Origin: Bacteroidota bacterium
GTDB lineage: Bacteria; Bacteroidota; Ignavibacteria; Kapaibacteriales; UBA2268
Length of the DNA stretch: 64,000 bases
NCBI GenBank assembly: GCA_024278075.1
Contig: JAJRTW010000155.1
Location: 4,191 to 68,190, forward strand
Reading direction: 5' to 3'
The number at the start of each line of letters is the position of its first letter. The stretch's first letter is position 1. Under the pieces are notes generated by a model that saw only the letters and a program-made list of their open reading frames with translations, was not told where the DNA came from and did not search any database. The position numbers were made by a program, and so were the translations under genes. This document shows, one piece after another, positions 250 through 55,043 of this stretch.

Positions 250-770
250 GAAAAATAAATCGCTTACGAAATGTCATTCTGAGCCCATCGGCAGTCTATC
301 CTGAGCCCTTCGGCCTGGCTCTGGATAAACTATGTCGGAGGACTCTGGATAAACTCCGCGATGAATCTATAACTTTATACATTTTAAGTGTTTATAGATT
401 CTTCACTACGCTCCGACATAAATGTCCGAAGTACTGTTAAATTACAATCGAAATATAAAACGTCCCGTCGGTTGTTACAACTGGCAAAATACAACAGCTT
501 CTAAACACGCCGGTTGTAACATCCGGCTATATGAGAATATAAAAGGCTTTTGAATAAATTGCGAATATTTACCAGTAGTGTCCGGTTAAAAATGAGAACC
601 ACTCATAATATGTACCTGAATATTATGACTTGTCATTGCAGAACTCGTTTCAGAATCCAGTATTCACGGGCTATGTGGTCATATTGAGATGGATACCGGA
701 TTCCCGATAGCGGGATTACTTCCCAATACGGGAATTCGCTGGGCTCAACAAGTCCGGTATAACATGATTT
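250..770. repeat. Composite intergenic repeat element copy E1 (MITE/REP-like) between cheA and cheB
   Basis: It contains a 'gtcggttgttacaactggc' hairpin module (466-485) and a ~185-bp module (574-757). That module recurs inverted at 10611-10822 and its terminus 'agtagtgtccggttaa' recurs at 16227-16244. Internal direct repeats are 'ctctggataaact' x2 and 'ctgagccc[at]tcggc' x2. Confidence 0.6.
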
Positions 771-909
771 AATATTATATTTCACTAATTCAAAAATTGC
801 ATCCATAATGGCACACTATAGGCCAAAATGGAGTTTAATGCTGCAAATATCACAAATTGACTGATTGTTAACCGAACACTTGTAGCTGCAATTATTTACA
901 TAAAATTAT

Positions 910-2880
910 TTACATAAAATTATTATTAAACACTGTCTTTAATAAATCAGCAACGTCAATAATCATAATAACCCTTCCGTCGCCAAGTATGGTCGAGCCG
1001 GCAATTCCGGAAACATTGCCAAGATACTCGCCCAAAGATTTAATAACAATCTCCTGCTGCCCCAATAGTTCATCAACCACAACCCCGACCCTCTGGATTC
1101 CAAGCCCGACAATTACGGCGTTGCGGTCAACCAAATCCTCTTTCACAACCTCAACGCCAACGGCCTTATCGAGCCGGAGCAGGGGGTACACCTCGCTTCG
1201 TATCCTGATTACTTCCTGCTGGTTCACAGTATAAACGCTTTCCGGGTCAATCGAGACCACTTCTTCGACCGAACTCAAAGGTATTGCATAAGATTCGTTG
1301 TGCACCTTTACCAACAGTCCTTGAATAATTGCGAGAGTCAAAGGCAGCTTGATAATAAATGTACTGCCGGCCTGAAGCTCCGATTCAATTTCTATCATAC
1401 CTTTCAGATGCTGAATATTTGTTCTGACCACATCCATACCAACACCTCGGCCGGAGACGTTTGACACAGTCTTAGCGGTGCTGAAACCGGGAGTGAATAT
1501 CAACTGAAAAGCTTCCCGCGAGGTCATCTGTGATGCTTGTTCTTCATTAATCAACCCCTTTTCCAAAGCCTTTGCTTTAAGATTTTCGGGGTCCATTCCG
1601 GCGCCATCGTCGGAAATCCTAAGAACAATATTATTTCCTTCCTGATCGGCATCTAATGTAAGAATTCCCTCTTCCGGCTTGCCAAGTTCTTTTCTTTTTT
1701 CAGGGGATTCGATGCCATGGTCGCAAGAGTTTCTTATCATGTGGACTAACGGATCATTCAGCTCTTCGATAATTCCGCGGTCGATCTCGGTTTCTTCACC
1801 TTTTACAATTAGTTTGATTTTTTTCTTAAATTCCTTCGACAGGTCCCGGACTATTCTTGGAGCCTTTTGATACAGTTTGCCTATCGGCACCATCCTCATT
1901 CTCATAATCGCAGCCTGAATTTCGGATGTAACGAAATCAATCTGTGCGGTATTTTCAATCAGGTCCCGTATTTCATCCTTATGCTCGAATTCATGCTCGA
2001 GGATCTCTGTTATCTGAGCCAGCCTGTTTCTGCCTAGCACTAATTCACCGGATAGGTCCATTAGTGCTTCAACCCTATTGACATCTACCCTTATCGTCTC
2101 TGAAGCCATCTTCATATTGCCGGGCTTAATTATTTTAGCTTTGGGTTTGGTTTTGGTTTTTGGTTCAGCAGCTGGCGGCTCTGATTTATTGGCTTCTGCT
2201 TGCGAAGCCGGTTCTGCGGCGGCCTGTGTTTTGGCGGTGGCTTCCTTTTTTGCTTTCGGTTTCGGCTTGTTCTCTTCAACGAATTTCTGATTCAATTCAT
2301 CGAATGCGGCTTGAATCAAATCCAGTTCATCATTCGAGAAATCATCGGCGCCCTGGACCATTTCGGGATTATCTGTTACAGCTGACAAAGCATCTGTTAA
2401 CGGAGGCGTGTCGTCTTCCGGCCGGATGGCCTGTTCCTCTGGTGCATCGGTGGCTTCCTCATCATCGCCATCTAAGGCTTCGCCTGCATTCAGCTTTTTC
2501 AATTGCTTAATCGTTCCGGCAAAATCAACCGGCTGCTTATCTCCGGATTGTAATTTATCCATTAGTGTAACTATCCAGTCGTGCACTTCAAGCAAGACAT
2601 CAATAATAGGCAATGACACTTTAAGCTCTATACGGCGGAGCTTGTTCAGCAGGTCTTCGGCATGGTGAGTAATAGTAGTAATGGCATCGAACCCCATGAA
2701 TCCGGAAGTACCTTTGATAGTATGGAAGCTTCGAAAAATCCTGTTCAACAGGTCAAGGTCTTCCGGCTGATTTTCAAGGATCATCAAATCCTGCGAAACA
2801 TTATCCAAAAGTTCTTGAGTTTCAACAAGGAATCCCTCAAATATTTCCTGCATCTCCGGGTCGCTAAACTGAGAGTTCAT
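910..2880 (-). CDS. cheA: Chemotaxis histidine kinase CheA
   Basis: 656-aa ORF with an Hpt motif (HTIKGTSGFMGFD), a HATPase_c region (NSCDHGIE...GRGVGMDVV) and a C-terminal CheW-like domain. Confidence 0.9.
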   Translation of the reverse strand: MNSQFSDPEMQEIFEGFLVETQELLDNVSQDLMILENQPEDLDLLNRIFRSFHTIKGTSGFMGFDAITTITHHAEDLLNKLRRIELKVSLPIIDVLLEVHDWIVTLMDKLQSGDKQPVDFAGTIKQLKKLNAGEALDGDDEEATDAPEEQAIRPEDDTPPLTDALSAVTDNPEMVQGADDFSNDELDLIQAAFDELNQKFVEENKPKPKAKKEATAKTQAAAEPASQAEANKSEPPAAEPKTKTKPKAKIIKPGNMKMASETIRVDVNRVEALMDLSGELVLGRNRLAQITEILEHEFEHKDEIRDLIENTAQIDFVTSEIQAAIMRMRMVPIGKLYQKAPRIVRDLSKEFKKKIKLIVKGEETEIDRGIIEELNDPLVHMIRNSCDHGIESPEKRKELGKPEEGILTLDADQEGNNIVLRISDDGAGMDPENLKAKALEKGLINEEQASQMTSREAFQLIFTPGFSTAKTVSNVSGRGVGMDVVRTNIQHLKGMIEIESELQAGSTFIIKLPLTLAIIQGLLVKVHNESYAIPLSSVEEVVSIDPESVYTVNQQEVIRIRSEVYPLLRLDKAVGVEVVKEDLVDRNAVIVGLGIQRVGVVVDELLGQQEIVIKSLGEYLGNVSGIAGSTILGDGRVIMIIDVADLLKTVFNNNFM

Positions 2881-2949: not shown

Positions 2950-3987
2950 TTATTTTCCGAACATAGCATCTATATCATCCTGAGAAAACGGCTCTGAATG
3001 ATCGTCATCTTCCGATTCTTCAATTTCAATTCTATCAACTTTATTCTCAATATTCGTTGGTTCGGTATCATTATTATTCGTGTCGGCACTGCTGTTAATT
3101 GCCGCCGTTCCCGAATTGGCTTCGGATTCTTCAGTTTCGATATTTCCATTGAACATCGCATCAATATCCTCAGGCGTTACCGGCTCACGGCCGCTATCGG
3201 CATCTGCACGTCCATCAAAAACTTTGTCTACTTCGGCCTGCCTGGATTCTTTGTTGTCATAGGAGTTAACGGCTTCCGGGTCGAAAGCAATGTCTCTGTG
3301 AAGCCTTGACACGTTAATCTTCTCCGTATCATCTTCCTCCGAAACAATATCGCTAATATCGGTTGATTTAAACGTAGTCATTATCTTCGACAATTTATTG
3401 TGAATCGTTTCAAGCAAATGATTCACAGCAGCAATTTGCTGGGAAGAAATATCCTGAACCTGAAGAGACATCATAATCGAATTAGTATCGTTGCGGACAC
3501 TATCCAATATTTCGTTGGTCTCATTTTTCATTTTAATATATTCTTTATTCGGCTGCGATTTCAAGCCTTTGATAGAATTAGACAGTTGCGGCAGGATTTC
3601 CTGCAGATCGCTTTTCTGCTGAATTGCCTTGTGAATAATTTCAAGCAATTTAATCGGATTTTGCTTAGATTGCTCAACGATTTCGTCCATTCTTGCCATA
3701 TTCGTTGAAATAAGGTCTGCCTTGTAGAACAAACCGTCCACTATATCCATTATTTCGGTTGTTGCATGTTCGGTAGCCTCGGTAACTTTCGAAAGCTGTT
3801 CGGAAGCTCCGGGCATTTTCTTCATGTTGTCTTCAATCGATACGTTTATTTCATCAAGAACGGGATGAATCTCTTTTACAAATAAAAATATCTCTTCAAG
3901 AAATGGAATAACCCTTTGGCCAAGAACAAATAATAATCGTAATTCATCGGCTTTTTGCAACAATTCAGTAATATCTTTATCTTTCAT
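2950..3987 (-). CDS. CheZ-like CheY-P phosphatase candidate with two C-terminal FliM-N-like CheY-docking motifs
   Basis: 345 aa and helical. The motif 'LQVQDISSQQIAAV' matches the CheZ active-site pattern QD-x-x-x-Q (E. coli 'AQDFQDLTGQVI'). The acidic disordered tail has 'PEDIDAMFNG' and a terminal 'SQDDIDAMFGK' resembling FliM 'LSQDEIDALL'. Located inside the che operon. Confidence 0.45.
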   Translation of the reverse strand: MKDKDITELLQKADELRLLFVLGQRVIPFLEEIFLFVKEIHPVLDEINVSIEDNMKKMPGASEQLSKVTEATEHATTEIMDIVDGLFYKADLISTNMARMDEIVEQSKQNPIKLLEIIHKAIQQKSDLQEILPQLSNSIKGLKSQPNKEYIKMKNETNEILDSVRNDTNSIMMSLQVQDISSQQIAAVNHLLETIHNKLSKIMTTFKSTDISDIVSEEDDTEKINVSRLHRDIAFDPEAVNSYDNKESRQAEVDKVFDGRADADSGREPVTPEDIDAMFNGNIETEESEANSGTAAINSSADTNNNDTEPTNIENKVDRIEIEESEDDDHSEPFSQDDIDAMFGK

Positions 3988-4011: not shown

Positions 4012-4389
4012 TTATCCTAAATTAGTGGCCTTAAGTACAGCATCGAGCTTTTCTTTCAGTACATGTGGTGTAAATGGCTTAACGACATAATTATTAACTC
4101 TGGCCTTTAAAGCATCAACAATATCCTGCTTCAGGCCTCTTGTTGTCACCATCAGAATCGGCAAATGTTTGTATTTGTCATTGGACCTTATTGATTTAGT
4201 CAATTCCAGCCCGCTCATAATTGGCATATTCCAGTCGGTTATAACAAATTCCACCGTCCCCTTTTCCAATTGTTCCATAGCTTCAAATCCATCACCGGCC
4301 TCGAGCGTATCAGTATAGCCAAAAGTTTTTAAGGCGTTGATAACGATTCTTCTCATCGTAGGCGAGTCATCAACAACTAAAAATTGCAT
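4012..4389 (-). CDS. cheY: Chemotaxis response regulator CheY
   Basis: 125-aa single REC domain with DD...D...T...K residues (VVDDSPTMRR, DWNMP, VTT, KPF). Confidence 0.85.
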   Translation of the reverse strand: MQFLVVDDSPTMRRIVINALKTFGYTDTLEAGDGFEAMEQLEKGTVEFVITDWNMPIMSGLELTKSIRSNDKYKHLPILMVTTRGLKQDIVDALKARVNNYVVKPFTPHVLKEKLDAVLKATNLG

Positions 4390-4431: not shown

Positions 4432-4797
4432 CTACCCGATGTACTTTGCCACCTCATACTGTATTCGCTTTTTGTTAAAAGGCTTAATCAGGTAGGAATC
4501 CGCCCCGGCTTCCATGCCGCTTTCCACATCTTCATCCTTGGATAGCGAAGACAATATAATTACGGGCAAATCAATAAATTTCGGATCTTCCCTAATGGTT
4601 TTAATTAATTTCAGGCCATCAATATTTGGCATGTTCAAATCGGTGATCAACAAATCAATTCCCTCTTCCGGAAGTTTCTCAAGGGCATCCATCCCATCTA
4701 CCGCAGTTATGATTCTATAGCCTTCAATTTTAAGGGCCATGGTAATAAATTTTCGCACTGAAGCAGAATCTTCGGCAATCAAGATTGTTTTTGACAT
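4432..4797 (-). CDS. Single-domain response regulator (CheY-like)
   Basis: 121-aa REC domain (LIAEDSASVRK, DLNMPNIDGL, KPF). Confidence 0.8.
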   Translation of the reverse strand: MSKTILIAEDSASVRKFITMALKIEGYRIITAVDGMDALEKLPEEGIDLLITDLNMPNIDGLKLIKTIREDPKFIDLPVIILSSLSKDEDVESGMEAGADSYLIKPFNKKRIQYEVAKYIG

Positions 4798-4854: not shown

Positions 4855-5772
4855 TTACTCTTTCTTATATGCCATTGCCTTTGGCAAATGTATAAGTTTG
4901 AATGCTTTGGATATGCCATGCAGAGATTCGGAATAACCTATAAAAAGGTAACCGTTCTTTTGCAGGGCATTGTATAGATGCGCCACCACTTGCTGCTTCG
5001 ATGGTATATCGAAATAGATTAATACATTACAGCAAAATATCACATTGCAGTTTGTAAATGCCTTCATCTCGATCGGGTCGTAAAGATTGACCTTCATAAA
5101 TTTCACTAAGCGCTTAACCTCGTTGCTAAGGATATACGTATTGCCCGACTGGGTAAAGTATTTAGCCATATATTCAGGCGGTACGTTGCGCACGGCATAT
5201 TCTTTGTAGACTCCTTTTCGTGCTGTTTCCAATACTGCATTATTAATATCACTTGCCAGTATTTGAAAATTAATATGCGGATATTTCGGCTTTAGCCTTT
5301 GAAGAACAATCATAGCCAGTGTATATGCTTCCTCGCCGGTGGATGAAGCAGCGCTCCATATACGAAAAGTGGTAGGCGCTCGTGTGGGTTTTGATCTTAA
5401 TATCTCGGGCAGCAAAATATTCACAAAAGCTTCAAATTGCTGTTCGGCCCTAAAGAAATATGTTTCATTTATTGTTATTACTTCGAAGAGGCTGTTTATT
5501 TCCTGACGGCTGCCCGGGGATTTAATATAATTCAAATACTCTTCATAAGAATTCATTTTCCGATATGTAATCCGCTTCGAAATTCGACCTTCGAGCAAAT
5601 ATTTCTTGCTTTCGGTATAGTAAATTCCGCAGAGCTTATATATCTCATCACGAAGCTCCCGAAAGACTGAATCACTTAGTATCAATTCCTTATCTTGCGA
5701 TGCCGTTCTGCCGGATACGGCTGCCGTGGGCTTCGTTTTTGCAAATTTAAATTTAAATAATTGTTGTGGCAT
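4855..5772 (-). CDS. cheR: Chemotaxis protein methyltransferase CheR
   Basis: 305 aa with CheR N-terminal and SAM-MTase motifs (FFRAEQQFEAF, FRIWSAASSTGEEAYTLAM). Confidence 0.85.
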   Translation of the reverse strand: MPQQLFKFKFAKTKPTAAVSGRTASQDKELILSDSVFRELRDEIYKLCGIYYTESKKYLLEGRISKRITYRKMNSYEEYLNYIKSPGSRQEINSLFEVITINETYFFRAEQQFEAFVNILLPEILRSKPTRAPTTFRIWSAASSTGEEAYTLAMIVLQRLKPKYPHINFQILASDINNAVLETARKGVYKEYAVRNVPPEYMAKYFTQSGNTYILSNEVKRLVKFMKVNLYDPIEMKAFTNCNVIFCCNVLIYFDIPSKQQVVAHLYNALQKNGYLFIGYSESLHGISKAFKLIHLPKAMAYKKE

Positions 5773-5820
5773 ATAATATTGTCTCGCAAAAAATAATAAT
5801 TAATCAATATAATGAGCAAG

Positions 5821-7182
5821 TTAATCGACAAGTAACTCTTGTGCTTTATCACTGTTTTCGTCGCCGGCAGCACTAATTAGCTCTAATTCTTCCCTGAAAT
5901 TGTCTGCTCCCATCTGCTGTATTAAATCTAAAAGGTTCGCTATTGCCTCTTTATCGCATGAAACAAACAAACCTTTAGATGATAATATTACTTCCTCTGC
6001 ATCTATTTTAATAAGTAATTCTATAAATTCGGTAGAATAGCCTTTTGGGTTTATAACGGCTTCTGTGATGATTGAATTAATTGCCCTTGAAATGTTTTCC
6101 CGCGGCGAATCCTCGTGAAACATTCCTATCAAGCCTATTAAGTCGACAAAAGAAGTATCTATGTCGGCCTTATGATATAATGTATGGAAGAATTTCGAAA
6201 CCGATTCGGGGGCAGAGTTTACAAGCAGATTAAAAATAATGAGTTGCTGGGTTTCCGCATTGTTTGTCATTATCTCATTTATCAGCCCGTCTACATCTTC
6301 CTCAAGGTAATCATCGCCCAATGCTATCAATCCGGCTGCCCTTGTGTCCGGGTCCTCGTCCATCAAAGCATTCTGGGCAACATAGCGAAGCCTATAGGGC
6401 AGCTTTATTTTCATTTCGAGCCTAAAAGCTATTGCAAATATGGCTATCAGTACATACGATTGAATTTCCGCAGGTGCGTTTGGCAATTCTTCCATCAATT
6501 GTTCGCAGATAGAAAAATCAGAGCCTGCGTGGGCCAAAGCGTCAATACATGAAGTTTGCAGGAATATGTCATCTTCGGTTTGCAACTTTGATAAAAGGAA
6601 TTCCTGAGCCTCGGGGCCGCCGATTTTGCCGATGGACTCCACCACGTTGGGCTGAATTGATTCATCGATGTCATATATGCCGAATAAATGCTCAAGCGCC
6701 TTAGTATCGCCAAGATTGCCAAGAGCTTCCACGGCCGACGCCCTTACATTGGCATCATAATTTCTCAGCAACGGATAAATATTTTCAATCACATCGGTAT
6801 CATCGATAATACCAAGAATATCACATGCATATTTAAGGACATCCGGATCGTCGCTTTCGAGAAACGGCACCAGAACTTTAGCCGAATCCCGGCCTAATTT
6901 TATCATCAGGTCGCCGGCTAAATTCCTGACTTCAATATCATCGGAAGATATGAACTCCGATACATGTTTTGCAGAGCTGTGTTTAATCTCATCAGGTACG
7001 TTCAGCAGGCCAAGAAAGCAAACATCACGCACGCCAATGTCCTGGTCCATCAATCCATGGGCCAATGATTTTAACGATTCATCCGAATATGACCCGGCCG
7101 ACACGATTGCCTGCGCCGCATTTCGCCGCTCTTCGGGGTCATCACTTTCACTAAGGGCCGACAGTAACTTTATTTCATCCAT
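5821..7182 (-). CDS. HEAT-repeat (PBS lyase-type) protein
   Basis: 453 aa with repeated 'xVRxxAxxALGxLGD' HEAT motifs (NVRASAVEALGNLGD, DTRAAGLIALGDD). Confidence 0.6.
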   Translation of the reverse strand: MDEIKLLSALSESDDPEERRNAAQAIVSAGSYSDESLKSLAHGLMDQDIGVRDVCFLGLLNVPDEIKHSSAKHVSEFISSDDIEVRNLAGDLMIKLGRDSAKVLVPFLESDDPDVLKYACDILGIIDDTDVIENIYPLLRNYDANVRASAVEALGNLGDTKALEHLFGIYDIDESIQPNVVESIGKIGGPEAQEFLLSKLQTEDDIFLQTSCIDALAHAGSDFSICEQLMEELPNAPAEIQSYVLIAIFAIAFRLEMKIKLPYRLRYVAQNALMDEDPDTRAAGLIALGDDYLEEDVDGLINEIMTNNAETQQLIIFNLLVNSAPESVSKFFHTLYHKADIDTSFVDLIGLIGMFHEDSPRENISRAINSIITEAVINPKGYSTEFIELLIKIDAEEVILSSKGLFVSCDKEAIANLLDLIQQMGADNFREELELISAAGDENSDKAQELLVD

Positions 7183-7435: not shown

Positions 7436-8350
7436 TTACGAAGGTGCCGTTAAATCATTTTCCGCATCGGGATTATTGCCGGCCAGCTTCTTCAAGTCAT
7501 ATATGAATTTTGCCACCTCGGCCGAAATTAATATCATCAGCGAGGAATAATAAATCCATAGCGCTATTGAAACTATTACGGCATAAGTTCCGTAGAACCT
7601 GCCATAGTTACTAATGCTGCCTATATACCAGGCGAAAATGTATCGCGACAGTTCAATCATTAGCAGCGAAGAACCTGTTGCTATCAGCCGGATTGTCCGG
7701 GGAAGCTTTTTGTTCGGAACCGACCTGAAAATGAAATAGAATAACCCGAATGAAGTTAGCAGCGATAATACATTGAACGTTACTTCCGAGAGTATCCAGT
7801 TTACTCTTTCGGGGAAATATTCATTAATAAACGACAATGCAACCGTAATTATTGGAACTGCATAAGAATATAACATAACAAGGACTGTCATAACCAAAGT
7901 CAGCAAGATGTCTTTCAACCGGTAGAAAACAAATATATTAGGCGAATGCAGCCTGAATACCGCATTCAGGCCGGTTCGGAGCGAGCTAATCAATGTGGAT
8001 GAAATCCATAGAAGCACGCCCATGCCAATCCAGCCAAAGAAACTGCTGTTCTTGAGTATCAAATTGACTTCGCCAACCAGGTCTTTAAGGAAACCGGCCG
8101 ACCTGCTGTCGGGTGGCAATAGGTCTATGAGTATTTTCTCAAGCGATGCTGATAAATTTTCGGCACCGAAAACAAGGTTCACCACATAGACTGCCACAAG
8201 AAACATGGGAAGAAGGTATAATAATATATTGAATGCAATTCCGGCGGCGAGCATAAAAAGATGGTGCTGCTCTATGCGTTCGACAATTATTGCCACCGAC
8301 CTGTAGATCTTATATGGCTTGCCGTCTTTTACTAAATACTTCCTGAGCAT
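7436..8350 (-). CDS. YihY/BrkB family inner-membrane protein
   Basis: 304 aa, multi-TM. N-terminal 'AAGIAFNILLYLLPMFL' is typical of YihY/virulence factor BrkB. Confidence 0.65.
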   Translation of the reverse strand: MLRKYLVKDGKPYKIYRSVAIIVERIEQHHLFMLAAGIAFNILLYLLPMFLVAVYVVNLVFGAENLSASLEKILIDLLPPDSRSAGFLKDLVGEVNLILKNSSFFGWIGMGVLLWISSTLISSLRTGLNAVFRLHSPNIFVFYRLKDILLTLVMTVLVMLYSYAVPIITVALSFINEYFPERVNWILSEVTFNVLSLLTSFGLFYFIFRSVPNKKLPRTIRLIATGSSLLMIELSRYIFAWYIGSISNYGRFYGTYAVIVSIALWIYYSSLMILISAEVAKFIYDLKKLAGNNPDAENDLTAPS

Positions 8351-8418: not shown

Positions 8419-8572
8419 CAGAACTATTCAATAGCCACGTGCTTTAGCTCGTGGAAGCCCAAATCCCCGAATTAAAACTCGGAGCTATATATTCCTTCAT
8501 ACTTCAATAGCCATGTGCTTTAGCTCGTGGAAGCCCAAATCCCCGAATTAAAACTCGGGGCTATAAATCTTT
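8419..8572. repeat. Tandem direct repeat, 2 x ~77 bp
   Basis: Units 'ttcaatagcca[ct]gtgctttagctcgtggaagcccaaatccccgaattaaaactcgg[ag]gctata' at ~8428 and ~8505 are ~97% identical. Each has an inverted repeat ccacg...cgtgg. Confidence 0.8.
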
Positions 8573-8605: not shown

Positions 8606-10297
8606 ATGAAAAAAATATTAAAATATAAACTAACTCTGCTTATTATAATATGTTCTTGCGCCAATCCGCAGCCACCGTCGGGCGGCCCGGCAGATAAAAC
8701 TCCACCGGAAATAGTGGCGTTCGAACCTGCCAGCGGAGTTCTGAACTTCAAAGGCGGTTCGATCATTATCGAATTTAGTAAATATATGAACAAAAGCAAG
8801 GTAAGGGAAAATATTTTTATCTCGCCGTCGGCCAAACTTGATTTCGATTGGAGTGGCAAAGAGCTTGGAATTGAATTTCTTGAAGAACTCAGCCCGGACA
8901 AGACTTATGCCCTGACGCTGGGCACTGGCTACTCGGATTTGAAAGGCAATAAACCCACCGAAGCCTTCACTTTGATTTTTTCGACCGGAAATGTAATTGA
9001 TTCCGGAACCATTAAAGGAAAATTATTCGACGCCACGCCTTCCGGCATATATATCTATGCCTACAAAATCGACAGCATGAACGTTGATACTTTCGACATC
9101 AGGAACAACAAACCGAATTATTGGACGCAGATTGGCACGAATGGCAATTTCCTGATTATGGCTTTGAAGGATGGCACTTATAGGTTAATAGCTATCCGCG
9201 ACCAGTTCAAGGACGAGATTTACTCCGAGGGGGCTGATGCGTTTGGCGCCCCCGTCCGGGATGTTACAGTAATAAATGGCTCCGCACCGGAAGTTAAATT
9301 AAAAATCGGACCGCCGATAGACATTATTAAGCCTCAGTTATACACTGCATATTCAACATCTGACAGGTCAATAGAAGTTTCCTTCAGCGAAGCAATCGAC
9401 CCTTCGTCATTATCGAAGAACTCATTTGTTATAAGTGATTCAGCCGGAAGCCAACTCCGCGCCATAAATTCCCTGTATCCGGATATTGAGAATAAAAGCA
9501 AAATAATAGTTTTCGCTTCCGGGCCGCTGGATACCGCTGTCAAGTGGAAGTTAACAGCCTTGGCCAATGCGGAGAACTGCCCGCGGGACACTATAGGGTT
9601 CTGCATAGACGACACTGCAAATACGGCTTATTTTTTCAGTGACACGTCTATTGATTCTACTCTTCCCTCTGTCATATCATCGCCTTTCCCGGATAGCACT
9701 TATGATTTGCCGATCAATCAACAATTCGAATTTATTTTTAATATGAGCGTAGCCGAAGAGAATTTTAAGGACAGAATCAAATTAATAAAGTCAGCAGATT
9801 CTTCAACGGCCGGCTTTGACATCAATTTTATCAGTGGCAATGATTTTGAATTAATTCCTTAGGAGTTTCTCGAGCCTGACACCTGGTACCGGGTTGAACT
9901 GCGGCTGGACTCACTTGCGGGCGGCAACGGAATGCTGGCAAAGGATTCGTTAATCAACTTGAACTTCCTGACACAGGATCAAAGAAAGTACAGTCAAATA
10001 GGCGGCACCTTGGCGGACTCATCTCTTTGCGACGGCCCTTATTATGTTATACTTAAGGCAAAAAGCGGAAATAAGGCAATCACCGCAAAAGTAGCCGACG
10101 GTGGCAGCTGGGAATTCAAAGCATTACCGGTCGGGATTTATAGTTTCGAAATATTTTGCGATTCCGATGGCAATGGCATCTATAGCTTTGGCAATGCCAG
10201 CCCTTTTGAATTCGGCGAAAGATTTTCCGCAATCGAGCAGGAAATCGAAGTAAAAGCCAGGTGGGAAGTCGAGAACATCAAATTAATCTTTAAATAA
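8606..10297 (+). pseudogene. Ig-like (SbsA-type) domain lipoprotein, interrupted by an in-frame amber codon at 9860-9862
   Basis: ORFs 8606..9862 and 9932..10297 are in the same frame, separated only by a TAG. Translation reads sensibly through it (..NDFELIP*EFLEPDTWYRVELRLD..). Lipoprotein signal 'LLIIICSCANP' and 'PADKTPPEIV' Ig-like N-domain. Confidence 0.5.
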
Positions 10298-10339: not shown

Positions 10340-10825
10340 ATATTTAACGTTCCGTCAGTTGTTACAACTGACGAATGACGAGAGTTTCTATATTGCCAGT
10401 TGTAACAACTGGCGAAAGCAAAGGTGTAACAAAGCTGGTGGCTTTGATACAAGGGTTAACATTGCAATTGTTTCTGAGATGCCGTATTAGTGTCCGGTTA
10501 AAATGCAGCCAATTTGTGATAATCGAAGTAATAAGCTCCTTTTTGGCCTATATTGTGCTATAGTGGATACAATTTTGAAATTAGCAAAAATAATATCTAA
10601 ACGTGTCATTCCGGACTTATTGAGCCCAGCGAATTCCCGTATTGGGAAGTAATCCCGCTATCGGGAACCCGGAATCCATCTCAATATGGCCACATAGCCC
10701 GCACATACTGGATTCTTCACTACGCCACAAGTGGCTTGCCATAGATGGCTTTGTTCAGAATGACAAGTCATAATATTCAGGTACATATTCTGAGTGTTTC
10801 TCTTTTTTTACCGGACACTACTAAT
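10340..10825. repeat. Composite intergenic repeat element copy E2 (contains inverted copy of the E1 185-bp module)
   Basis: Hairpins 'cagttgttacaactgacg' (10356) and 'ccagttgtaacaactggcg' (10398). A B-start fragment 'tattagtgtccggttaaaatg' is at 10486. The reverse complement of the E1 module spans 10611-10822. Flanked by the 12-bp direct repeat 'ctaatatgaata' at 10301 and 10821. Confidence 0.65.
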
Positions 10826-11695
10826 ATGAATAATATAAATCCGAATACACCCAAATCGAACAAAGATATTATCCTTGAAATTATTGCAACGGGAATTTCA
10901 AGATACTCGGCCAATCTTGAGCTGTGCAAAAAAGCGTTCTCCGAAGAATCCGTGCATGGCCTAAGGGTATCCATCCGGAGGCTAATAACCATTGTTCGTG
11001 TGATAAATAAAATAATCCCGAATGAAAATGTACCATCATTGCTTTCATCTTTTAAATCGCACCTAAAATTGTTCAATCCCCTGCGCGATACGCAAGTGAT
11101 GATGCTAAAGATAGAGGAAATGGCCCAAAGGCATCCGGCACTTGAAGTTTTCGGCTCCGAACTAAAAGAACGCGAAAAAAATTATATATTAGCTCTGAAA
11201 AAGGGAATTCAGCATTTGTCATTTTCCCGGATTCAGCCTGCTCTCGACGAAATGAATGAATCCTTAGGTGCGTCGGTTGTTTCCGGCAGCATTATTTTCG
11301 CCCATATAATTAATTCAATGAATTCGTCTTTCACAAAAGTTATTGAGCTTAATAATATTGCCACAAGCGATAACATGGAATCTTTGCATAAAGTCAGGCT
11401 TGCGTTCAAGAAGTTCCGCTACCGAGCCGAAGCTTTCACAAATATTATCAACTATCCGGAATGCAGGCGAAAGCAGCTTGGGAAATTCCAGGATACACTC
11501 GGGGCAATTCAGGATAATTCCGTACTGATGAAGAATATCGAAGAATTTTCCATTAACAATAATTTGGAAAAGGACTTCTTGCCGGCAATAATTGAATTAC
11601 GTGAGGAAGGGGTACTTTTGGTTAATAATTATTTCAGTAATTCGGATTTTATATTTAATTTTTGGTCATTGCCGCAACCGCCGGCGCTATCTTGA
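10826..11695 (+). CDS. CHAD domain-containing protein
   Basis: Motif 'VHGLRVSIRRLITIVRV' is typical of CHAD. The start was moved to the internal ATG (MNNINP...) because the longer ORF start lies inside the repeat element. Confidence 0.55.
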   Translation: MNNINPNTPKSNKDIILEIIATGISRYSANLELCKKAFSEESVHGLRVSIRRLITIVRVINKIIPNENVPSLLSSFKSHLKLFNPLRDTQVMMLKIEEMAQRHPALEVFGSELKEREKNYILALKKGIQHLSFSRIQPALDEMNESLGASVVSGSIIFAHIINSMNSSFTKVIELNNIATSDNMESLHKVRLAFKKFRYRAEAFTNIINYPECRRKQLGKFQDTLGAIQDNSVLMKNIEEFSINNNLEKDFLPAIIELREEGVLLVNNYFSNSDFIFNFWSLPQPPALS

Positions 11696-34663: not shown

Positions 34664-35389
34664 ATGCTAAAAGCTCTTGATAGTACGGATTCCACTTACC
34701 TGGCCGGAGTGTATAAAAGCCGGTGGCAATCGGCGATTCTGTCTTGGTTTTCTTCTACTCAATCTACTCAGCCATCGGACTCTCACATGCCAGACCGTTG
34801 GGACGGGCTGATTTATGACAGCGGCGGTGTCGAAATGGAAAAGCTCGGTGCCGATGTTGCTTACACCGGTTCGGAAGATTTGCAGAATAATCCATATTCG
34901 GCACGTTTGAGACCTCTAACGGATTATAGCTTTCTGAAAGCAGCGAAAAATATAATGATAGTCAAATGTGTATTTAGTGCGTTTGATGCTACGAAGGTTG
35001 GCAGTTCTCATCAAACTACTGCCGTCAATACGGCTTTGTCAGATTCCCTGAGCAATGTAAACAACGCATACATACAGTCACGTTTTTTGAATGACATGCC
35101 TGTCACTTGGATGCCAAATTTATTCAGGCCCATAGTTAAAATCGGCGGTACGAATATCTTCAGGGAATTGAAGTTGTCGGCATTCGGCGATAATAATAAC
35201 AATGAAGGTGATTTAGGGATCGGATGGCCACTTCCATTTGAGTTTCACAAATACGAAATGTTCAATGATCCGATTGATACTATTGATGTTGAGGCGGCAG
35301 TCGGGCAATTCATCGACGTTAGCGGTACTTTGTATTGCAAACGGTATCCGGTGAGAATGGACATGGTTGTTACATATCAGAAAAAGTAA
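34664..35389 (+). CDS. Hypothetical structural protein
   Basis: 241-aa ORF. Confidence 0.4.
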   Translation: MLKALDSTDSTYLAGVYKSRWQSAILSWFSSTQSTQPSDSHMPDRWDGLIYDSGGVEMEKLGADVAYTGSEDLQNNPYSARLRPLTDYSFLKAAKNIMIVKCVFSAFDATKVGSSHQTTAVNTALSDSLSNVNNAYIQSRFLNDMPVTWMPNLFRPIVKIGGTNIFRELKLSAFGDNNNNEGDLGIGWPLPFEFHKYEMFNDPIDTIDVEAAVGQFIDVSGTLYCKRYPVRMDMVVTYQKK

Positions 35390-35390
35390 T

Positions 35391-35915
35391 ATGAAAATGA
35401 CATCACAGCAGGTGTACAATTTAATATTAAGCACCTCAATTTACATAACCGGACTGATAGACGATTTTGACGACATCGACCCGAGAGAACTGGCGGAATG
35501 GGGGCATTCGGTCGCCAAATACGAAAGCATGTACGACACGAAGGCCAAAAATCCCGCAAGCTCTGCTAAAGGGCTGATGCAATTAGTGGACAAGACAAAA
35601 GAATGGATGGAAAAGAAATACTATGGCGGCGAAATTGCCGAATCGAACAAAATGTATGACCCGAAATATAATGTTAAAATCGGGCTGGCTTATTTAGCGT
35701 ATCTGTTCAACAGGTACAAACACGAAAGCGACCCCTGGAAACGGGCGGTAATCGCATATTATTATGGGCATTATAAGTCCGAAGACCCTGACGGATATTG
35801 GAAACGTGTATTTGGGTATAATAAAGAATTTGACTACGGAGATTTAGGGAAAGATTACAAGCCCGAATATACTGATTTACCAAAGCAAAAGGGGTTCTAT
35901 TTAGAATTTACATGA
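35391..35915 (+). CDS. Lytic transglycosylase (SLT domain)
   Basis: 'AKYESMYD...SSAKGLMQLVDKT' (ES...GLMQ) and 'AYYYGH' (AYNxG-like) signatures. Confidence 0.65.
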   Translation: MKMTSQQVYNLILSTSIYITGLIDDFDDIDPRELAEWGHSVAKYESMYDTKAKNPASSAKGLMQLVDKTKEWMEKKYYGGEIAESNKMYDPKYNVKIGLAYLAYLFNRYKHESDPWKRAVIAYYYGHYKSEDPDGYWKRVFGYNKEFDYGDLGKDYKPEYTDLPKQKGFYLEFT

Positions 35916-37400: not shown

Positions 37401-37741
37401 ACGAGGAAAACGACGGTAATGGAATGAGCAGGGAAGAACATATGAAGAAGAAGAAAAGGCGTATCGATCATAATAAATTTGCCATTCTGTTTATGGTAAT
37501 CAATACGTTGTTTCTGCTTTATGTGATTGGATATACACATATTTCTTGGGATATGCTGGCATCGAAGATGTTCAACGTTTCGTTATATACGGTAATATTG
37601 TTTCTAATGATGAGATTTTTTAAGTCAAAATATGCAAGTACGACAAATAAGCTATGGGCCAATCCTATTGCTGTTGGTGTTTTCTTTATGGGCTATGCCA
37701 TTGGCCTCGGCCTCATACTCGCTGGCGGATCGAGCGTGTGA
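37397..37741 (+). CDS. Holin-like 3-TM small membrane protein
   Basis: 114 aa with three TM helices, sitting immediately before the CHAP peptidase. Confidence 0.4.
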   Translation: MNEENDGNGMSREEHMKKKKRRIDHNKFAILFMVINTLFLLYVIGYTHISWDMLASKMFNVSLYTVILFLMMRFFKSKYASTTNKLWANPIAVGVFFMGYAIGLGLILAGGSSV

Positions 37742-38327
37742 CAAGGCTCTTGAGTTCGACGGCATTAGAGAAACACCTGGCAAACAGAATACATCCCCTA
37801 TTATTGATAAAATGATTAAGCGGGGCGGCGGCCGGATTGGCTGGCCATGGTGCATGTACTTCGTTTACTATGTAGTAGATGAAGTATGCAGCACGCTCGA
37901 AATCGACAATCCATTGAAAAGAACGGGCAGTGTGGCCGCACAGCTTCATTTTGCCGAGCAGAATTATAGGAAAGGCCTGAAAGTTATCTACCCTTTTGAA
38001 TCGTATGCGAAATTCAAATCAATGAAAGGGGACATTCTGATCTTCAGGAAAGGGGGCAGCCTGAAGAAAAGCAGCCTGAAGGGACGATGGAACGGACATA
38101 CGGCTTTTGTTGTTAGTCAGATTAATGACAATCTGCTTGCTACGATTGAGGGCAACACTAACAAAAGAGGCTCCCGTGAGGGCGACGGAGTATATCGCAA
38201 AACACGTAAGATCAAATCGACAGGCCGGTTGAAATTAGGAGCGATTGTCAGAATGGAAATTACGATAGAAATTACGGTAGATATACCGGATTATGTGAAA
38301 ATACCATGTGATTTAGTGAGGAAATGA
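37632..38327 (+). CDS. Secreted CHAP-domain peptidoglycan hydrolase (endolysin candidate)
   Basis: Signal peptide MQVRQISYGPILLLLVFSLWAMPLASA. CHAP motifs are 'GWPWCMYFVYY' (Cys) and 'NGHTAFVV...IEGN' (His). The annotated start overlaps the holin-like ORF by 110 nt; an alternative start is at 37695. Confidence 0.55.
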   Translation: MQVRQISYGPILLLLVFSLWAMPLASASYSLADRACDKALEFDGIRETPGKQNTSPIIDKMIKRGGGRIGWPWCMYFVYYVVDEVCSTLEIDNPLKRTGSVAAQLHFAEQNYRKGLKVIYPFESYAKFKSMKGDILIFRKGGSLKKSSLKGRWNGHTAFVVSQINDNLLATIEGNTNKRGSREGDGVYRKTRKIKSTGRLKLGAIVRMEITIEITVDIPDYVKIPCDLVRK

Positions 38328-53434: not shown

Positions 53435-53500
53435 AACTTTTTTTTGGAATGCAGGCAGGATTTGAACCTGCGTAACGCCGCCCGTTCTGCATTCGAGGGG
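53435..53500 (-). repeat. tRNA 3'-end-like element A (T-arm 'gcaggttcaaatcctgc' + acceptor-like inverted repeat gaatgcag/ctgcattc)
   Basis: Minus strand: gaatgcag-aacgggcggcgttac-GCAGG-TTCAAAT-CCTGC-ctgcattcc. It is too short (~48 nt) to be a tRNA. About 90% identical to the element at 54978-55043. Confidence 0.6.
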
Positions 53501-54977: not shown

Positions 54978-55043
54978 TGAACTCGATTTGGGATGCAGCC
55001 AAGATTTGAACCTGCGTAACGCCGACCGCTCTGCATTCTGTAG
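54978..55043 (-). repeat. tRNA 3'-end-like element B (copy of element A)
   Basis: 'gggatgcagccaagatttgaacctgcgtaacgccgaccgctctgcattc' is about 90% identical to element A, with the same 'gaact' leader. Confidence 0.6.

What the first reader, a model, noticed from the sequence alone, without database searches (positions are those of the whole stretch)
2950..3987. CheZ-like phosphatase candidate carrying two FliM-N-like CheY-docking peptides at its C-terminus
- Inside the cheA-cheY operon sits a 345-aa helical protein whose 'QVQDISSQQ' matches the CheZ catalytic D-x-x-x-Q signature.
- Its acidic disordered tail contains '..PEDIDAMFNG..' and ends with '..SQDDIDAMFGK'. Both resemble the FliM N-terminal CheY-P-binding peptide (LSQDEIDALL) and the position of the CheZ C-terminal docking peptide.
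- Tandem duplicated docking peptides on a phosphatase would be an unusual solution for CheY-P recruitment in a non-proteobacterial lineage.
Basis: partly seen in the sequence, partly recalled or inferred. Interest (0 to 1): 0.6.

Follow-up and report, generated by a model that had tools for sequence, protein, structure and literature searches.

The report
CheZ phosphatase with repeated CheY-docking peptides
This gene encodes a distant relative of CheZ, the enzyme that switches off the bacterial chemotaxis signal, and its flexible tail carries two or three copies of the short peptide that catches the signal protein CheY instead of the usual one, a trait shared (1 to 7 copies) by its whole Ignavibacteria/Kapabacteria family and apparently not described before.

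Summary

- **ORF and family.** ORF 2950-3987 (-) encodes a 345-aa protein. It passes Pfam's CheZ threshold (38.6 vs 30.7 bits). Profile-profile alignment to canonical CheZ (E 3.6e-5) puts its invariant D179/Q183 on the catalytic D143/Q147.
- **Operon.** The gene sits in a conserved HEAT-cheR-RR2-cheY-cheZ-cheA operon.
- **Docking peptides.** The acidic disordered tail carries two FliM-N-like peptides (269-279, 333-343). They score 19 and 37 bits against a shuffled 99.9th percentile of 4.8. They are 91-100% conserved among close relatives, while the linkers are 19-41% identical.
- **A third site.** It is the best match, in sequence and in register, to the canonical CheZ C-terminal peptide.
- **Family-wide trait.** Among 166 relatives, 82% carry at least 2 copies (range 1-7), and arrays grow by in-frame tandem duplication. 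Canonical CheZ representatives carry one copy.
- **Likely partner.** The adjacent CheY keeps the docking face, including K119. RR2 has E119.

A CheZ in this lineage is already annotated, so only the multivalent tail is new: a new variant of a known kind. Peptide binding, phosphatase activity and the dimeric fold were not shown.

The parts
2950..3987 (-). cheZ-like gene, 345 aa
   Evidence: ORF. Pfam CheZ 38.6 bits against a cut-off of 30.7. 611 homologues, most with precomputed PF04344.
3313..3987 (-). helical catalytic domain, residues 1-225 (predicted helices 3-57, 61-123, 132-144, 147-208)
   Evidence: AlphaFold model, pLDDT mostly 70-92 in this part. hhalign maps residues 47-206 onto E. 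coli CheZ 37-170, with an insertion of about 33 residues at the hairpin tip.
3439..3453 (-). catalytic D179-I-S-S-Q183 (DxxxQ) within SLQVQDISSQQ
   Evidence: D179 and Q183 are invariant in 50 relatives. They align with E. coli D143/Q147.
3277..3303 (-). invariant block LHRDIAFDP (residues 229-237) at the start of the tail; role unknown. It occupies the position of the canonical 'LLNGP' linker motif.
   Evidence: H230, R231, A234, F235, D236 and P237 are invariant. P237 to Q250 is 13 residues, the same as P189 to Q202 in E. coli (sequences read). The local sub-profile alignment keeps that offset.
3211..3249 (-). proximal helix ESRQAEVDKVFDG (247-259): candidate counterpart of the canonical CheZ C-terminal CheY-docking helix
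   Evidence: Sub-profile hhalign against canonical 'Q.QVDDLL' scores 22.75, and 0 of 100 column shuffles reach it. R249, Q250 and D254 are nearly invariant or invariant. Predicted helix 246-261.
3151..3183 (-). internal FliM_N-like docking peptide PVTPEDIDAMF (269-279)
   Evidence: PSSM 19.1 bits against a shuffled 99.9th percentile of 4.8. 91% identical in close relatives while flanking linkers are 19-41% identical. Predicted helix 272-279 with a local pLDDT rise.
2992..3150 (-). acidic disordered linker (residues 280-332)
   Evidence: pLDDT below 50 for 281-332. 32% D/E and 4% K/R. 41% identity among close relatives.
2953..2991 (-). terminal FliM_N-like docking peptide PFSQDDIDAMFGK (333-345)
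   Evidence: PSSM 36.9 bits. 100% identical in close relatives. 115 of 117 relatives have a copy within 8 residues of the C-terminus. Predicted helix 336-344.
4012..4389 (-). cheY, 125 aa: the probable substrate and docking partner
   Evidence: 50% identical to E. coli CheY. D12, D13, D57, W58, N59, T87, Y106 and K109 are kept. Docking-face residues K92, I95, Y106, V108 and K119 are 99-100% conserved in 76 orthologues.
4432..4797 (-). second CheY-like response regulator (RR2), 121 aa: probably not a partner of the acidic peptides
   Evidence: 37% identical to E. coli CheY. L58 and S87. E119 in 100% of 72 orthologues, and D92 in 54%.
910..2880 (-). cheA (P1, P3, P4 and P5 found, no P2 match) immediately downstream of cheZ
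   Evidence: Pfam Hpt, H-kinase_dim, HATPase_c and CheW, with no P2 hit. Synteny conserved.
4855..7182 (-). cheR (4855-5772) and HEAT-repeat gene (5821-7182), the upstream members of the conserved operon
   Evidence: Pfam. The order HEAT-CheR-RR2-CheY-CheZ-CheA is found in 53 of 80 related loci, and the rest are cut by contig ends.

Best explanation
The gene encodes a remote member of the CheZ family of CheY-P phosphatases.

By analogy with E. coli CheZ, two chains would pair their long helical hairpins into a bundle. On that bundle, D179 and Q183 reach into the active site of phosphorylated CheY and position the water that removes the phosphoryl group.

Substrate capture is done by the tail. 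In place of one C-terminal amphipathic helix on a roughly 30-residue tether, this protein has a 120-residue acidic, disordered tail with three short helix-forming peptides:
- a proximal one (247-259) that corresponds to the ancestral CheZ C-peptide;
- two more distal ones (269-279 and 333-343) whose sequence (S-Q-D-D-I-D-A-M-F) is closer to the CheY-binding N-terminus of the motor protein FliM.

Each peptide is proposed to bind the alpha4-beta5-alpha5 face of the adjacent CheY (4012-4389), with its invariant Asp pairing with CheY K119. The captured CheY-P is then handed to the catalytic bundle. Several docking sites per chain should widen the capture radius and raise the on-rate and local concentration of CheY-P. 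Because they mimic FliM_N, they should also compete with the motor for CheY-P.

Copy number (1-7 in the family) changes by in-frame tandem duplication of peptide-plus-linker modules, so it is an evolvable setting.

Shown here: family membership by sequence, conservation of the catalytic pair, reality of and selection on the peptides, the conserved operon, and the conserved CheY docking face. Inferred: dimeric bundle, phosphatase activity, peptide-CheY binding, and any kinetic consequence.
For: - **Family.** Pfam CheZ 38.6 bits, above the gathering score of 30.7, E 1.4e-9. PF04344 is precomputed on most of 120 homologues, and several sources name them CheZ.
- **Alignment to canonical CheZ.** hhalign of the family profile against 56 canonical CheZ sequences gives probability 71.5% and E 3.6e-5 over 127 columns on both hairpin arms, with D179/Q183 on D143/Q147.
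- **Catalytic pair.** D179 and Q183 are invariant in 50 sequences.
- **Structure model.** AlphaFold predicts long helices, then a disordered tail with helices and local confidence rises exactly at 246-261, 272-279 and 336-344.
- **Peptide significance.** PSSM scores 36.9 and 19.1 bits against a shuffled 99.9th percentile of 4.8.
- **Register with the canonical C-peptide.** All three segments align in register with it: scores 22.75, 12.46 and 13.07, reached by 0, 0 and 2 of 100 shuffles.
- **Purifying selection on the peptides.** Identity among close relatives is 0.91 and 1.00 for the copies against 0.19 and 0.41 for the linkers. The two copies differ at synonymous sites.
- **Family-wide trait.** Copy numbers are 1:29, 2:92, 3:16, 4:19, 5:7, 6:1, 7:1.
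- **Tandem duplication.** In-frame tandem DNA repeats of 57-114 nt carry the motif in at least 8 relatives.
- **Control.** 81 of 115 canonical representatives have one motif and only one has a weak second.
- **Context.** cheY lies immediately upstream in 79 of 80 loci.
- **Partner.** CheY K92, I95, Y106, V108 and K119 are 99-100% conserved.
- **Literature.** A salt bridge between CheY K119 and FliM Asp12 is reported (bioRxiv 10.1101/781468). The tether-and-reel-in model of CheZ is summarised in bioRxiv 10.1101/607010.
Against: - The relationship to solved CheZ is remote. phmmer and the family profile do not reach any CheZ chain in the PDB.
- The NCBIfam CheZ equivalog scores 16.5 against a cut-off of 257.
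- The hhalign probability is only 71.5%.
- Foldseek of the monomer model gave no significant hit, and 1KMI was not in the top 50.
- The AXXFQ motif next to DxxxQ that is conserved in proteobacterial CheZ (PMC7750401) reads S-L-Q-V-Q here.
- The proximal helix does not fit the PSSM of the distal copies (-18.5 bits), so its docking role is the weakest claim.
- The FliM of this lineage was not available for comparison.
- The canonical control covers only relatives at least 37% identical to E. coli CheZ, so multi-copy tails in other remote CheZ lineages are not excluded.
Confidence: 0.72

Rival explanations
1. Only the terminal peptide, or only the proximal canonical helix, docks CheY-P. The internal copy is a by-product of repeat expansion in a low-complexity acidic tail and has no function of its own.
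For: Arrays expand by tandem DNA duplication. Copy number varies widely, and 29 of 166 relatives manage with one copy. The internal copy scores lower than the terminal one (19.1 against 36.9 bits) and has Pro in place of Gln.
Against: The internal copy is 91% identical among close relatives while its flanks are 19% and 41% identical. The two copies differ at synonymous sites and have unrelated flanks, so this is an old duplication kept by selection. 82% of relatives keep at least 2 copies. AlphaFold predicts a helix with a local confidence rise at the internal copy.
Confidence: 0.15
2. The FliM_N-like (EIDAL-type) peptides recruit a partner other than CheY, most plausibly the flagellar-number ATPase FlhG, which binds the same motif on FliM/FliY. 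This would place CheZ at the flagellar pole or the nascent C-ring rather than capture substrate.
For: The EIDAL motif of FliM is reported to be necessary and sufficient for FlhG interaction in Shewanella, as well as being the high-affinity CheY-P site (bioRxiv 10.1101/2022.04.21.489128). CheZ proteins are commonly localised to poles by varied means (PMC7750401). A canonical-type docking helix is already present at 247-259, so the extra copies could have a different job.
Against: No flhG or flagellar gene is linked to cheZ in the window or in the 80 related loci. The conserved neighbour is cheY. The CheY docking face, including K119 that pairs with the motif's Asp, is invariant. All known CheZ C-terminal peptides bind CheY.
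Confidence: 0.08
3. The protein is mainly a stoichiometric CheY-P sponge or scaffold with little or no phosphatase activity. Its helical domain would be used for oligomerisation or localisation.
For: The AXXFQ motif is altered to SLQVQ. Homology to characterised CheZ is remote. There are more docking sites than putative active sites per chain.
Against: D179 and Q183 and the surrounding 'MMSLQVQDI(T/S)SQQ' are invariant across 50 relatives at 47-84% overall identity to the window protein. That is hard to explain without catalysis. The region aligns with the catalytic helix of canonical CheZ.
Confidence: 0.05

Closest known systems
CheZ of Escherichia coli / Salmonella (Pfam PF04344; structure 1KMI with CheY-BeF3)
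   Same: Both have the catalytic DxxxQ on the second hairpin helix (D179/Q183 against D143/Q147) and the conserved 'P-x-A...L...TE.A' segment on the first hairpin helix. Both have a disordered linker followed by an amphipathic helix of the S-Q-x-x-(V/I)-D-x-L-(L/F) type. The Pro-to-Gln spacing of 13 residues before the proximal helix is the same. Both genes sit next to cheY.
   Different: Identity is only about 17% over the aligned core, and the NCBIfam equivalog threshold is not met. The N-terminal helix is longer, and there is an insertion of about 33 residues at the hairpin tip. The motif reads SxxVQ where canonical CheZ has AxxFQ. The tail after the catalytic Gln is 162 residues against a median of 66. 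It carries two extra FliM_N-like docking peptides beyond the canonical-type helix. The C-terminal 'SLGF' of canonical CheZ is absent.
Remote CheZ orthologues of Helicobacter pylori (HP0170) and Campylobacter jejuni (Cj0700)
   Same: They set the precedent that very divergent CheZ proteins keep DxxxQ and phosphatase activity (bioRxiv 10.1101/2023.01.06.523011 abstract; cited in PMC9321776).
   Different: They belong to a different lineage and a different gene context: cheZ-trhP, scattered genes of the F3 class. No repeated docking peptide is mentioned in the texts I could read.
FliM N-terminal CheY-binding peptide (EIDAL motif, LSQAEIDALL)
   Same: The core S-Q-x-(D/E)-I-D-A-(L/M)-(L/F) is shared. 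The Asp that pairs with CheY K119 is invariant in the terminal copy. The family's own motif matrix ranks E. coli FliM_N (-3.9) above E. coli CheZ_C (-9.4).
   Different: Here the peptide is in the C-terminal tail of a phosphatase and is repeated. In FliM it is a single copy at the N-terminus of a C-ring protein. The last hydrophobic residue is Phe rather than Leu.
FliY / CheC-type phosphatases with an N-terminal EIDAL peptide (Bacillus)
   Same: The design logic is the same: a CheY-P phosphatase that carries a FliM_N-type docking peptide (PMC12826062).
   Different: The catalytic fold is unrelated (CheC/CheX alpha-beta fold against a helical bundle). The peptide is single and N-terminal, and the protein is part of the C-ring.

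Membership tests
CheZ (Pfam PF04344) | Sequence match to the family profile above the curated threshold | tested here: met
   38.6 bits against a gathering score of 30.7, E 1.4e-9, residues 36-223 on profile positions 10-173 of 203. PF04344 is precomputed on most homologues. Profile-profile comparison with canonical CheZ gives E 3.6e-5, probability 71.5%.
CheZ (Pfam PF04344) | Catalytic Asp and Gln in a DxxxQ motif (E. coli D143, Q147) on the C-terminal hairpin helix | tested here: met
   D179 and Q183 are invariant in 50 relatives. They align with D143/Q147. They lie mid-way along predicted helix 147-208.
CheZ (Pfam PF04344) | AXXF(Y)Q motif directly preceding DxxxQ, conserved in proteobacterial CheZ (PMC7750401) | tested here: not met
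   The family has S174-L-Q-V177-Q178. Only the Gln is shared; Ala is replaced by Ser and Phe by Val. This motif was defined on Proteobacteria and linked to localisation, not catalysis.
CheZ (Pfam PF04344) | Long helical hairpin that dimerises into a four-helix bundle | tested here: inconclusive
CheZ (Pfam PF04344) | Disordered linker ending in a C-terminal amphipathic CheY-binding helix | tested here: met
   The terminal peptide PFSQDDIDAMFGK is predicted helical after a disordered linker. It aligns with the canonical SQDQVDDLL. It is present at the C-terminus in 115 of 117 relatives. The feature is multiplied here.
CheZ (Pfam PF04344) | Encoded next to cheY in a chemotaxis gene cluster | tested here: met
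   cheY ends 24 nt upstream of cheZ. The CheY-CheZ-CheA order is conserved in the related loci.
CheZ (Pfam PF04344) | Accelerates dephosphorylation of CheY-P | not testable with these tools
   This needs a biochemical assay.
CheZ, enterobacterial equivalog (NCBIfam NF008368) | Score above the equivalog cut-off | tested here: not met
   16.5 bits against 257. It is a remote subfamily, not an equivalog of enteric CheZ.
EIDAL / FliM_N-type CheY-docking peptide | Sequence consensus (L/F)-S-Q-x-(D/E)-I-D-A-L-(L/F) forming a short amphipathic helix | tested here: met
   The window has FSQDDIDAMF and VTPEDIDAMF; E. coli FliM has LSQAEIDALL. Helices are predicted at 272-279 and 336-344.
EIDAL / FliM_N-type CheY-docking peptide | Binds the alpha4-beta5-alpha5 face of (phospho-)CheY | not testable with these tools
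Indirect support: CheY K92, I95, Y106, V108 and K119 are invariant in orthologues, and a K119-Asp12 salt bridge is known in E. coli.
   The 345-aa protein has no Response_reg or other non-CheZ domain hit. The relatives carry Ignavibacteria, Kapabacteria or Chlorobiota labels.

The most novel reading that the evidence does not exclude
The tail is not just a longer tether but a tunable, multivalent decoy of the motor. Each CheZ chain would present up to three (up to seven or eight in relatives) FliM_N-like or CheZ_C-like helices. The phosphatase would then both sequester CheY-P in direct competition with FliM and queue it for hydrolysis. Copy number, which changes by tandem duplication, would set the gain and speed of signal termination, and perhaps drive clustering of CheZ with CheY-P. 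A possible extension is that the lineage's P2-less CheA uses its own conserved linker helix (DF[ST][DE][DE]E[LI]xL[IL]xAAF) in place of a P2 domain. Kinase, phosphatase and motor would then all address one CheY face through short linear peptides.
Probability: 0.25. Interest if true: 0.7.

Novelty: new variant of a known kind. Interest (0 to 1): 0.5.

Why it matters
CheZ is the textbook case of a phosphatase that finds its substrate through a single tethered docking helix, and how that tether shapes kinetics is still being studied. This work identifies a natural family, present in 465 species-level genomes in the scan, in which the number of docking helices varies from 1 to 7 on otherwise similar enzymes.

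That gives a ready-made series for testing how valency, tether length and motor mimicry affect the rate and cooperativity of signal termination. It also shows that the ancestral CheZ helix and FliM-like peptides can coexist on one chain, which bears on how docking peptides are exchanged between chemotaxis components.

Tried and rejected
- **Sequence search against the PDB.** The single protein and the family profile found no CheZ chain, only weak coiled-coil or designed-protein matches.
- **FliM of the lineage.** It is not encoded in the window or within 10 kb of cheZ in the 80 related loci.
- **Where else the peptide array occurs.** The 15-column motif profile was too short. A 45-column triple-motif profile returned only 76 candidates and one marginal hit, so the question stays open.
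- **Provenance.** The exact protein is not on record in the contig index. Cluster look-up gave no names.
- **Proximal helix as a third copy of the same motif.** Rejected by the PSSM (-18.5 bits). It is better described as the canonical CheZ_C-type helix.
- **CheA linker island as an EIDAL-type peptide.** Not supported: only 3% of linkers exceed the shuffled 99th percentile.
- **Recent DNA duplication of the window's two copies.** Rejected: the copies differ at synonymous sites, the flanks are unrelated, and there is no tandem repeat.
- **ChePep, CheA-P2 or FliS identity.** Rejected: no such Pfam hits.
- **Papers.** The 2010 paper on the remote CheZ orthologue and the 2010 classification of chemotaxis systems were not held.
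Full report
**Observation.** It contains SLQVQDISSQQ (D179-x3-Q183), PVTPEDIDAMFNG (269-281) and the C-terminal PFSQDDIDAMFGK (333-345). It lies in a minus-strand operon: a HEAT-repeat protein (5821-7182), CheR (4855-5772), a CheY-like regulator here called RR2 (4432-4797), CheY (4012-4389), the ORF itself, and CheA (910-2880). After an ORF-free gap of about 770 nt, a CheB-like receiver N-terminus runs off the left edge of the window.

**Family assignment.** Against Pfam the protein matches only CheZ (PF04344). The score is 38.6 bits, above the gathering score of 30.7, and covers residues 36-223 on profile positions 10-173 of 203. The relationship to the characterised enzyme is remote:
- the NCBIfam enterobacterial CheZ equivalog scores 16.5 against a cut-off of 257;
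- neither the protein nor a 50-sequence family profile reaches a CheZ chain in the PDB by HMMER.

I therefore took E. coli CheZ from the annotated MG1655 record. I collected 150 diverse canonical representatives through the 50%-identity library, aligned 56 of them, and compared the two family profiles. hhalign gives 71.5% probability and E 3.6e-5 over 127 columns, window residues 47-206 on E. coli 37-170.
- The first hairpin helix (MPgASeQLSKVTEATE against IPDARDRLyyvaqMTEQAA) aligns.
- The catalytic helix (SIMMSLQVQDISSQQIAAV against EIMMAQDFQDLTGQVIKRM) aligns, with D179 and Q183 on D143 and Q147.
- An insertion of about 33 residues sits at the hairpin tip.

D179 and Q183 are invariant in the 50-sequence alignment. 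The AXXFQ motif that precedes DxxxQ in proteobacterial CheZ (PMC7750401) reads S-L-Q-V-Q here.

**The peptides are real and under selection.** A database search returned 611 homologues. The best 120 are 44-100% identical to the window protein, and sources name some of them CheZ in Ignavibacteria and Kapabacteria.

I built a position matrix from 161 terminal copies and scanned the tails of 166 distinct family members.
- The window's terminal copy scores 36.9 bits and its internal copy 19.1 bits. The 99.9th percentile of the best score in shuffled tails is 4.8.
- Copy numbers above threshold are 1 in 29 proteins, 2 in 92, 3 in 16, 4 in 19, 5 in 7, 6 in 1 and 7 in 1. Two copies is therefore the commonest state, and 82% have at least two.
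- A copy lies within 8 residues of the C-terminus in 115 of 117.
- Linkers are 29% D/E and 6.6% K/R.

Among the three closest relatives (77-84% identical overall), identity to the window protein varies by region:

| Region | Identity |
|---|---|
| Helical domain | 0.89 |
| Internal copy | 0.91 |
| Terminal copy | 1.00 |
| Linker before the internal copy (260-268) | 0.19 |
| Linker between the two copies (280-332) | 0.41 |

The two copies in the window differ at synonymous positions (ATT/ATA, GCG/GCT) and have unrelated flanks. There is no tandem DNA repeat in the gene. The duplication is therefore old and maintained at the protein level. In at least eight relatives the copies lie in in-frame tandem DNA repeats: periods 57-114 nt, 77-97% matches, 2.3-2.8 units, each unit encoding one motif plus linker. 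Arrays therefore grow by module duplication.

**A third site.** hhalign of the family against E. coli CheZ aligned the E. coli docking peptide ASQDQVDDLLDS with ESRQAEVDKVFDG (247-259), not with the DIDAMF copies. I tested this with sub-profiles against the canonical C-terminal 39 columns.

| Segment | Score | Column shuffles reaching it |
|---|---|---|
| Proximal | 22.75 | 0 of 100 |
| Internal copy | 12.46 | 0 of 100 |
| Terminal copy | 13.07 | 2 of 100 |

- The proximal match has Q250 on Q202 at the identical offset.
- All three are in the register S-Q-x-x-(V/I)-D-x-h-h.
- The upstream invariant block LHRxIAFDP (229-237) puts P237 13 residues before Q250, as P189 is 13 residues before Q202 in E. 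coli (sequences).

My reading is that residues 229-259 are the counterpart of the canonical linker plus C-peptide, and that the DIDA(L/M)F modules are additions. The proximal segment does not fit the matrix of the distal copies (-18.5 bits). The same matrix ranks E. coli FliM_N (-3.9) above E. coli CheZ_C (-9.4).

**Control.** I applied one generic rule after the catalytic xQDxxxQ.
- Of 115 canonical representatives, 81 have one docking motif and 33 have none; those I inspected are fragments or frameshifted sequences. One has a weak second match.
- In this family, 148 of 168 have at least two.
- The length after the catalytic Gln has a median of 66 residues in canonical CheZ and 162 here.
- In the canonical set the match nearly always runs to the last residue, so extra length is N-terminal.
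- Limitation: these representatives are at least 37% identical to E. coli CheZ, so other remote CheZ lineages are not sampled.

**Context and partner.** A genome scan found relatives in 465 species-level genomes. Nearly all carry Ignavibacteria, Kapabacteria, Chlorobiota or unclassified Bacteroidota labels, apart from a few Chloroflexota-labelled MAGs; several records labelled 'Hyphomicrobiales' look mislabelled.

The order HEAT-CheR-RR2-CheY-CheZ-CheA is found in 53 of 80 loci, and the rest are cut by contig ends.

The CheY at 4012-4389 is 50% identical to E. coli CheY. It keeps D12, D13, D57, W58, N59, T87, Y106 and K109. In 76 orthologues, K92, I95, Y106, V108 and K119 are 99-100% conserved and identical to the E. 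coli residues. [quoted passage not shown] The corresponding Asp of the terminal copy (D340) is invariant in the family.

RR2 has Glu at position 119 in all 72 orthologues, Asp at position 92 in 54%, Leu58 and Ser87. It therefore seems unlikely to bind these acidic peptides. This step is inference.

**Mechanism proposed.** The established model for CheZ is that the C-terminal helix supplies most of the binding energy, captures CheY-P, and the disordered linker lets it be 'reeled in' to the catalytic bundle (summarised in bioRxiv 10.1101/607010).

I propose the same chemistry here, with D179/Q183 on a dimeric bundle, but with multivalent capture. There would be one canonical-type helix 70 residues from the catalytic Gln and two FliM-like helices 92 and 156 residues from it, on a strongly acidic and presumably extended tail.

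Expected consequences are a larger capture radius, higher local CheY-P concentration, possibly more than one CheY-P bound per chain, and direct competition with FliM. None of these was tested.

**Rivals.**
1. Only one peptide works and the internal copy is repeat debris. The selection data argue against this.
2. The EIDAL-type peptides recruit FlhG, which binds the same motif on FliM in polar flagellates (bioRxiv 10.1101/2022.04.21.489128). There is no linkage evidence for this, and the conserved CheY face argues for CheY.
3. The protein is a non-catalytic sponge. The invariant catalytic motif argues against this.

**Novelty.** CheZ outside Proteobacteria is documented (PMC12887009). CheZ was listed among the chemotaxis genes of Ignavibacterium album in 2012 (PMC3362086), and automated pipelines already tag many of these proteins with PF04344.

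I could not find any description of a CheZ, or any single chemotaxis protein, with repeated CheY-docking peptides. Full-text searches on CheZ with Ignavibacteria, remote orthologues, multivalent or disordered tails, the EIDAL motif, and 'CheY-binding motifs/sites' returned nothing relevant. The library lacks most subscription papers, so this absence is not proof.

I class the finding as a new variant of a known kind, of moderate interest. It is a natural valency series for a well-studied tethered enzyme.

**Dead ends** are listed in the tried-and-rejected section. The main gap is that no complex prediction or fold comparison with 1KMI could be run.

Noticed in passing
window 574-795 and 10573-10822: Inverted repeats bracket about 10 kb that holds the whole che operon, a BrkB-family membrane protein (7436-8350) and Big_5/fn3 surface-protein ORFs. 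One pair has 144-nt arms (652-795 and 10573-10716, 87% complementary) and the other has 64-nt arms (574-637 and 10759-10822, 94%). The left arm lies in the ORF-free gap between cheA and a CheB-like gene. The right arm overlaps the start of a CHAD-domain ORF (10745-11695). Each arm is upstream of an outward-reading gene. They could be a repeated leader or promoter, a small mobile element, or the ends of an invertible or mobile segment. There is no Rfam match.
   Followed up: partly
window 910-2880 (CheA), residues about 178-198 (window roughly 2287-2349): CheA has no P2-domain match. Its otherwise unconserved P1-P3 linker holds a conserved island, DF[ST][DE][DE]E[LI]xL[IL]xAAFxE[VI]N, present in all 69 orthologues aligned. 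It looks like the docking peptide by eye (FSDDEIDLI against FSQDDIDAMF), but it does not score with the CheZ-derived matrix: only 3% exceed the shuffled 99th percentile. It may be a CheY- or CheZ-binding linear motif that replaces P2.
   Followed up: partly
window 3277-3303 (CheZ residues 229-237): The block LHRxIAFDP is invariant (H230, R231, A234, F235, D236, P237) between the helical domain and the docking helices. It is more conserved than most of the catalytic domain. Its function is unknown. It occupies the place of the canonical 'LLNGP' linker motif, in which G188E is reported to reduce E. coli CheZ activity significantly.
   Followed up: partly
window about 24000-51000, + strand: A long co-directional block of ORFs, mostly without Pfam matches. 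It includes an SLT transglycosylase (35367-35915), a CHAP-domain protein (37632-38327) and a 1476-aa protein with a ddrB-ParB domain and a P-loop ATPase domain (45951-50381). GC skew changes sign at its borders. It is probably a prophage or another integrated mobile element.
   Followed up: partly
window 53443-53494 and 54987-55038: Two 52-nt direct repeats, 90% identical, whose sequence resembles the 3' part of a tRNA gene (…GGATTTGAACC…). They could be tRNA genes or att-like remnants near the end of the putative mobile block. They were not checked with ARAGORN.
   Followed up: no
window 8427-8568: A 66-nt unit is repeated twice in tandem (8427-8492 and 8503-8568, 95% identical) in the intergenic region between the divergent genes at 7436-8350 (-) and 8606-9862 (+).
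   Followed up: no
window 5821-7182: A 453-aa HEAT/PBS-lyase-repeat protein is the first gene of the che operon. It is conserved in that position in at least 58 of 80 related loci. Its role in chemotaxis is unknown.
   Followed up: partly
related loci L002, L006, L015, L017, L019 and others: Many public MAG records that carry this Ignavibacteria/Kapabacteria-type operon are titled 'uncultured Hyphomicrobiales bacterium'.
   Followed up: no
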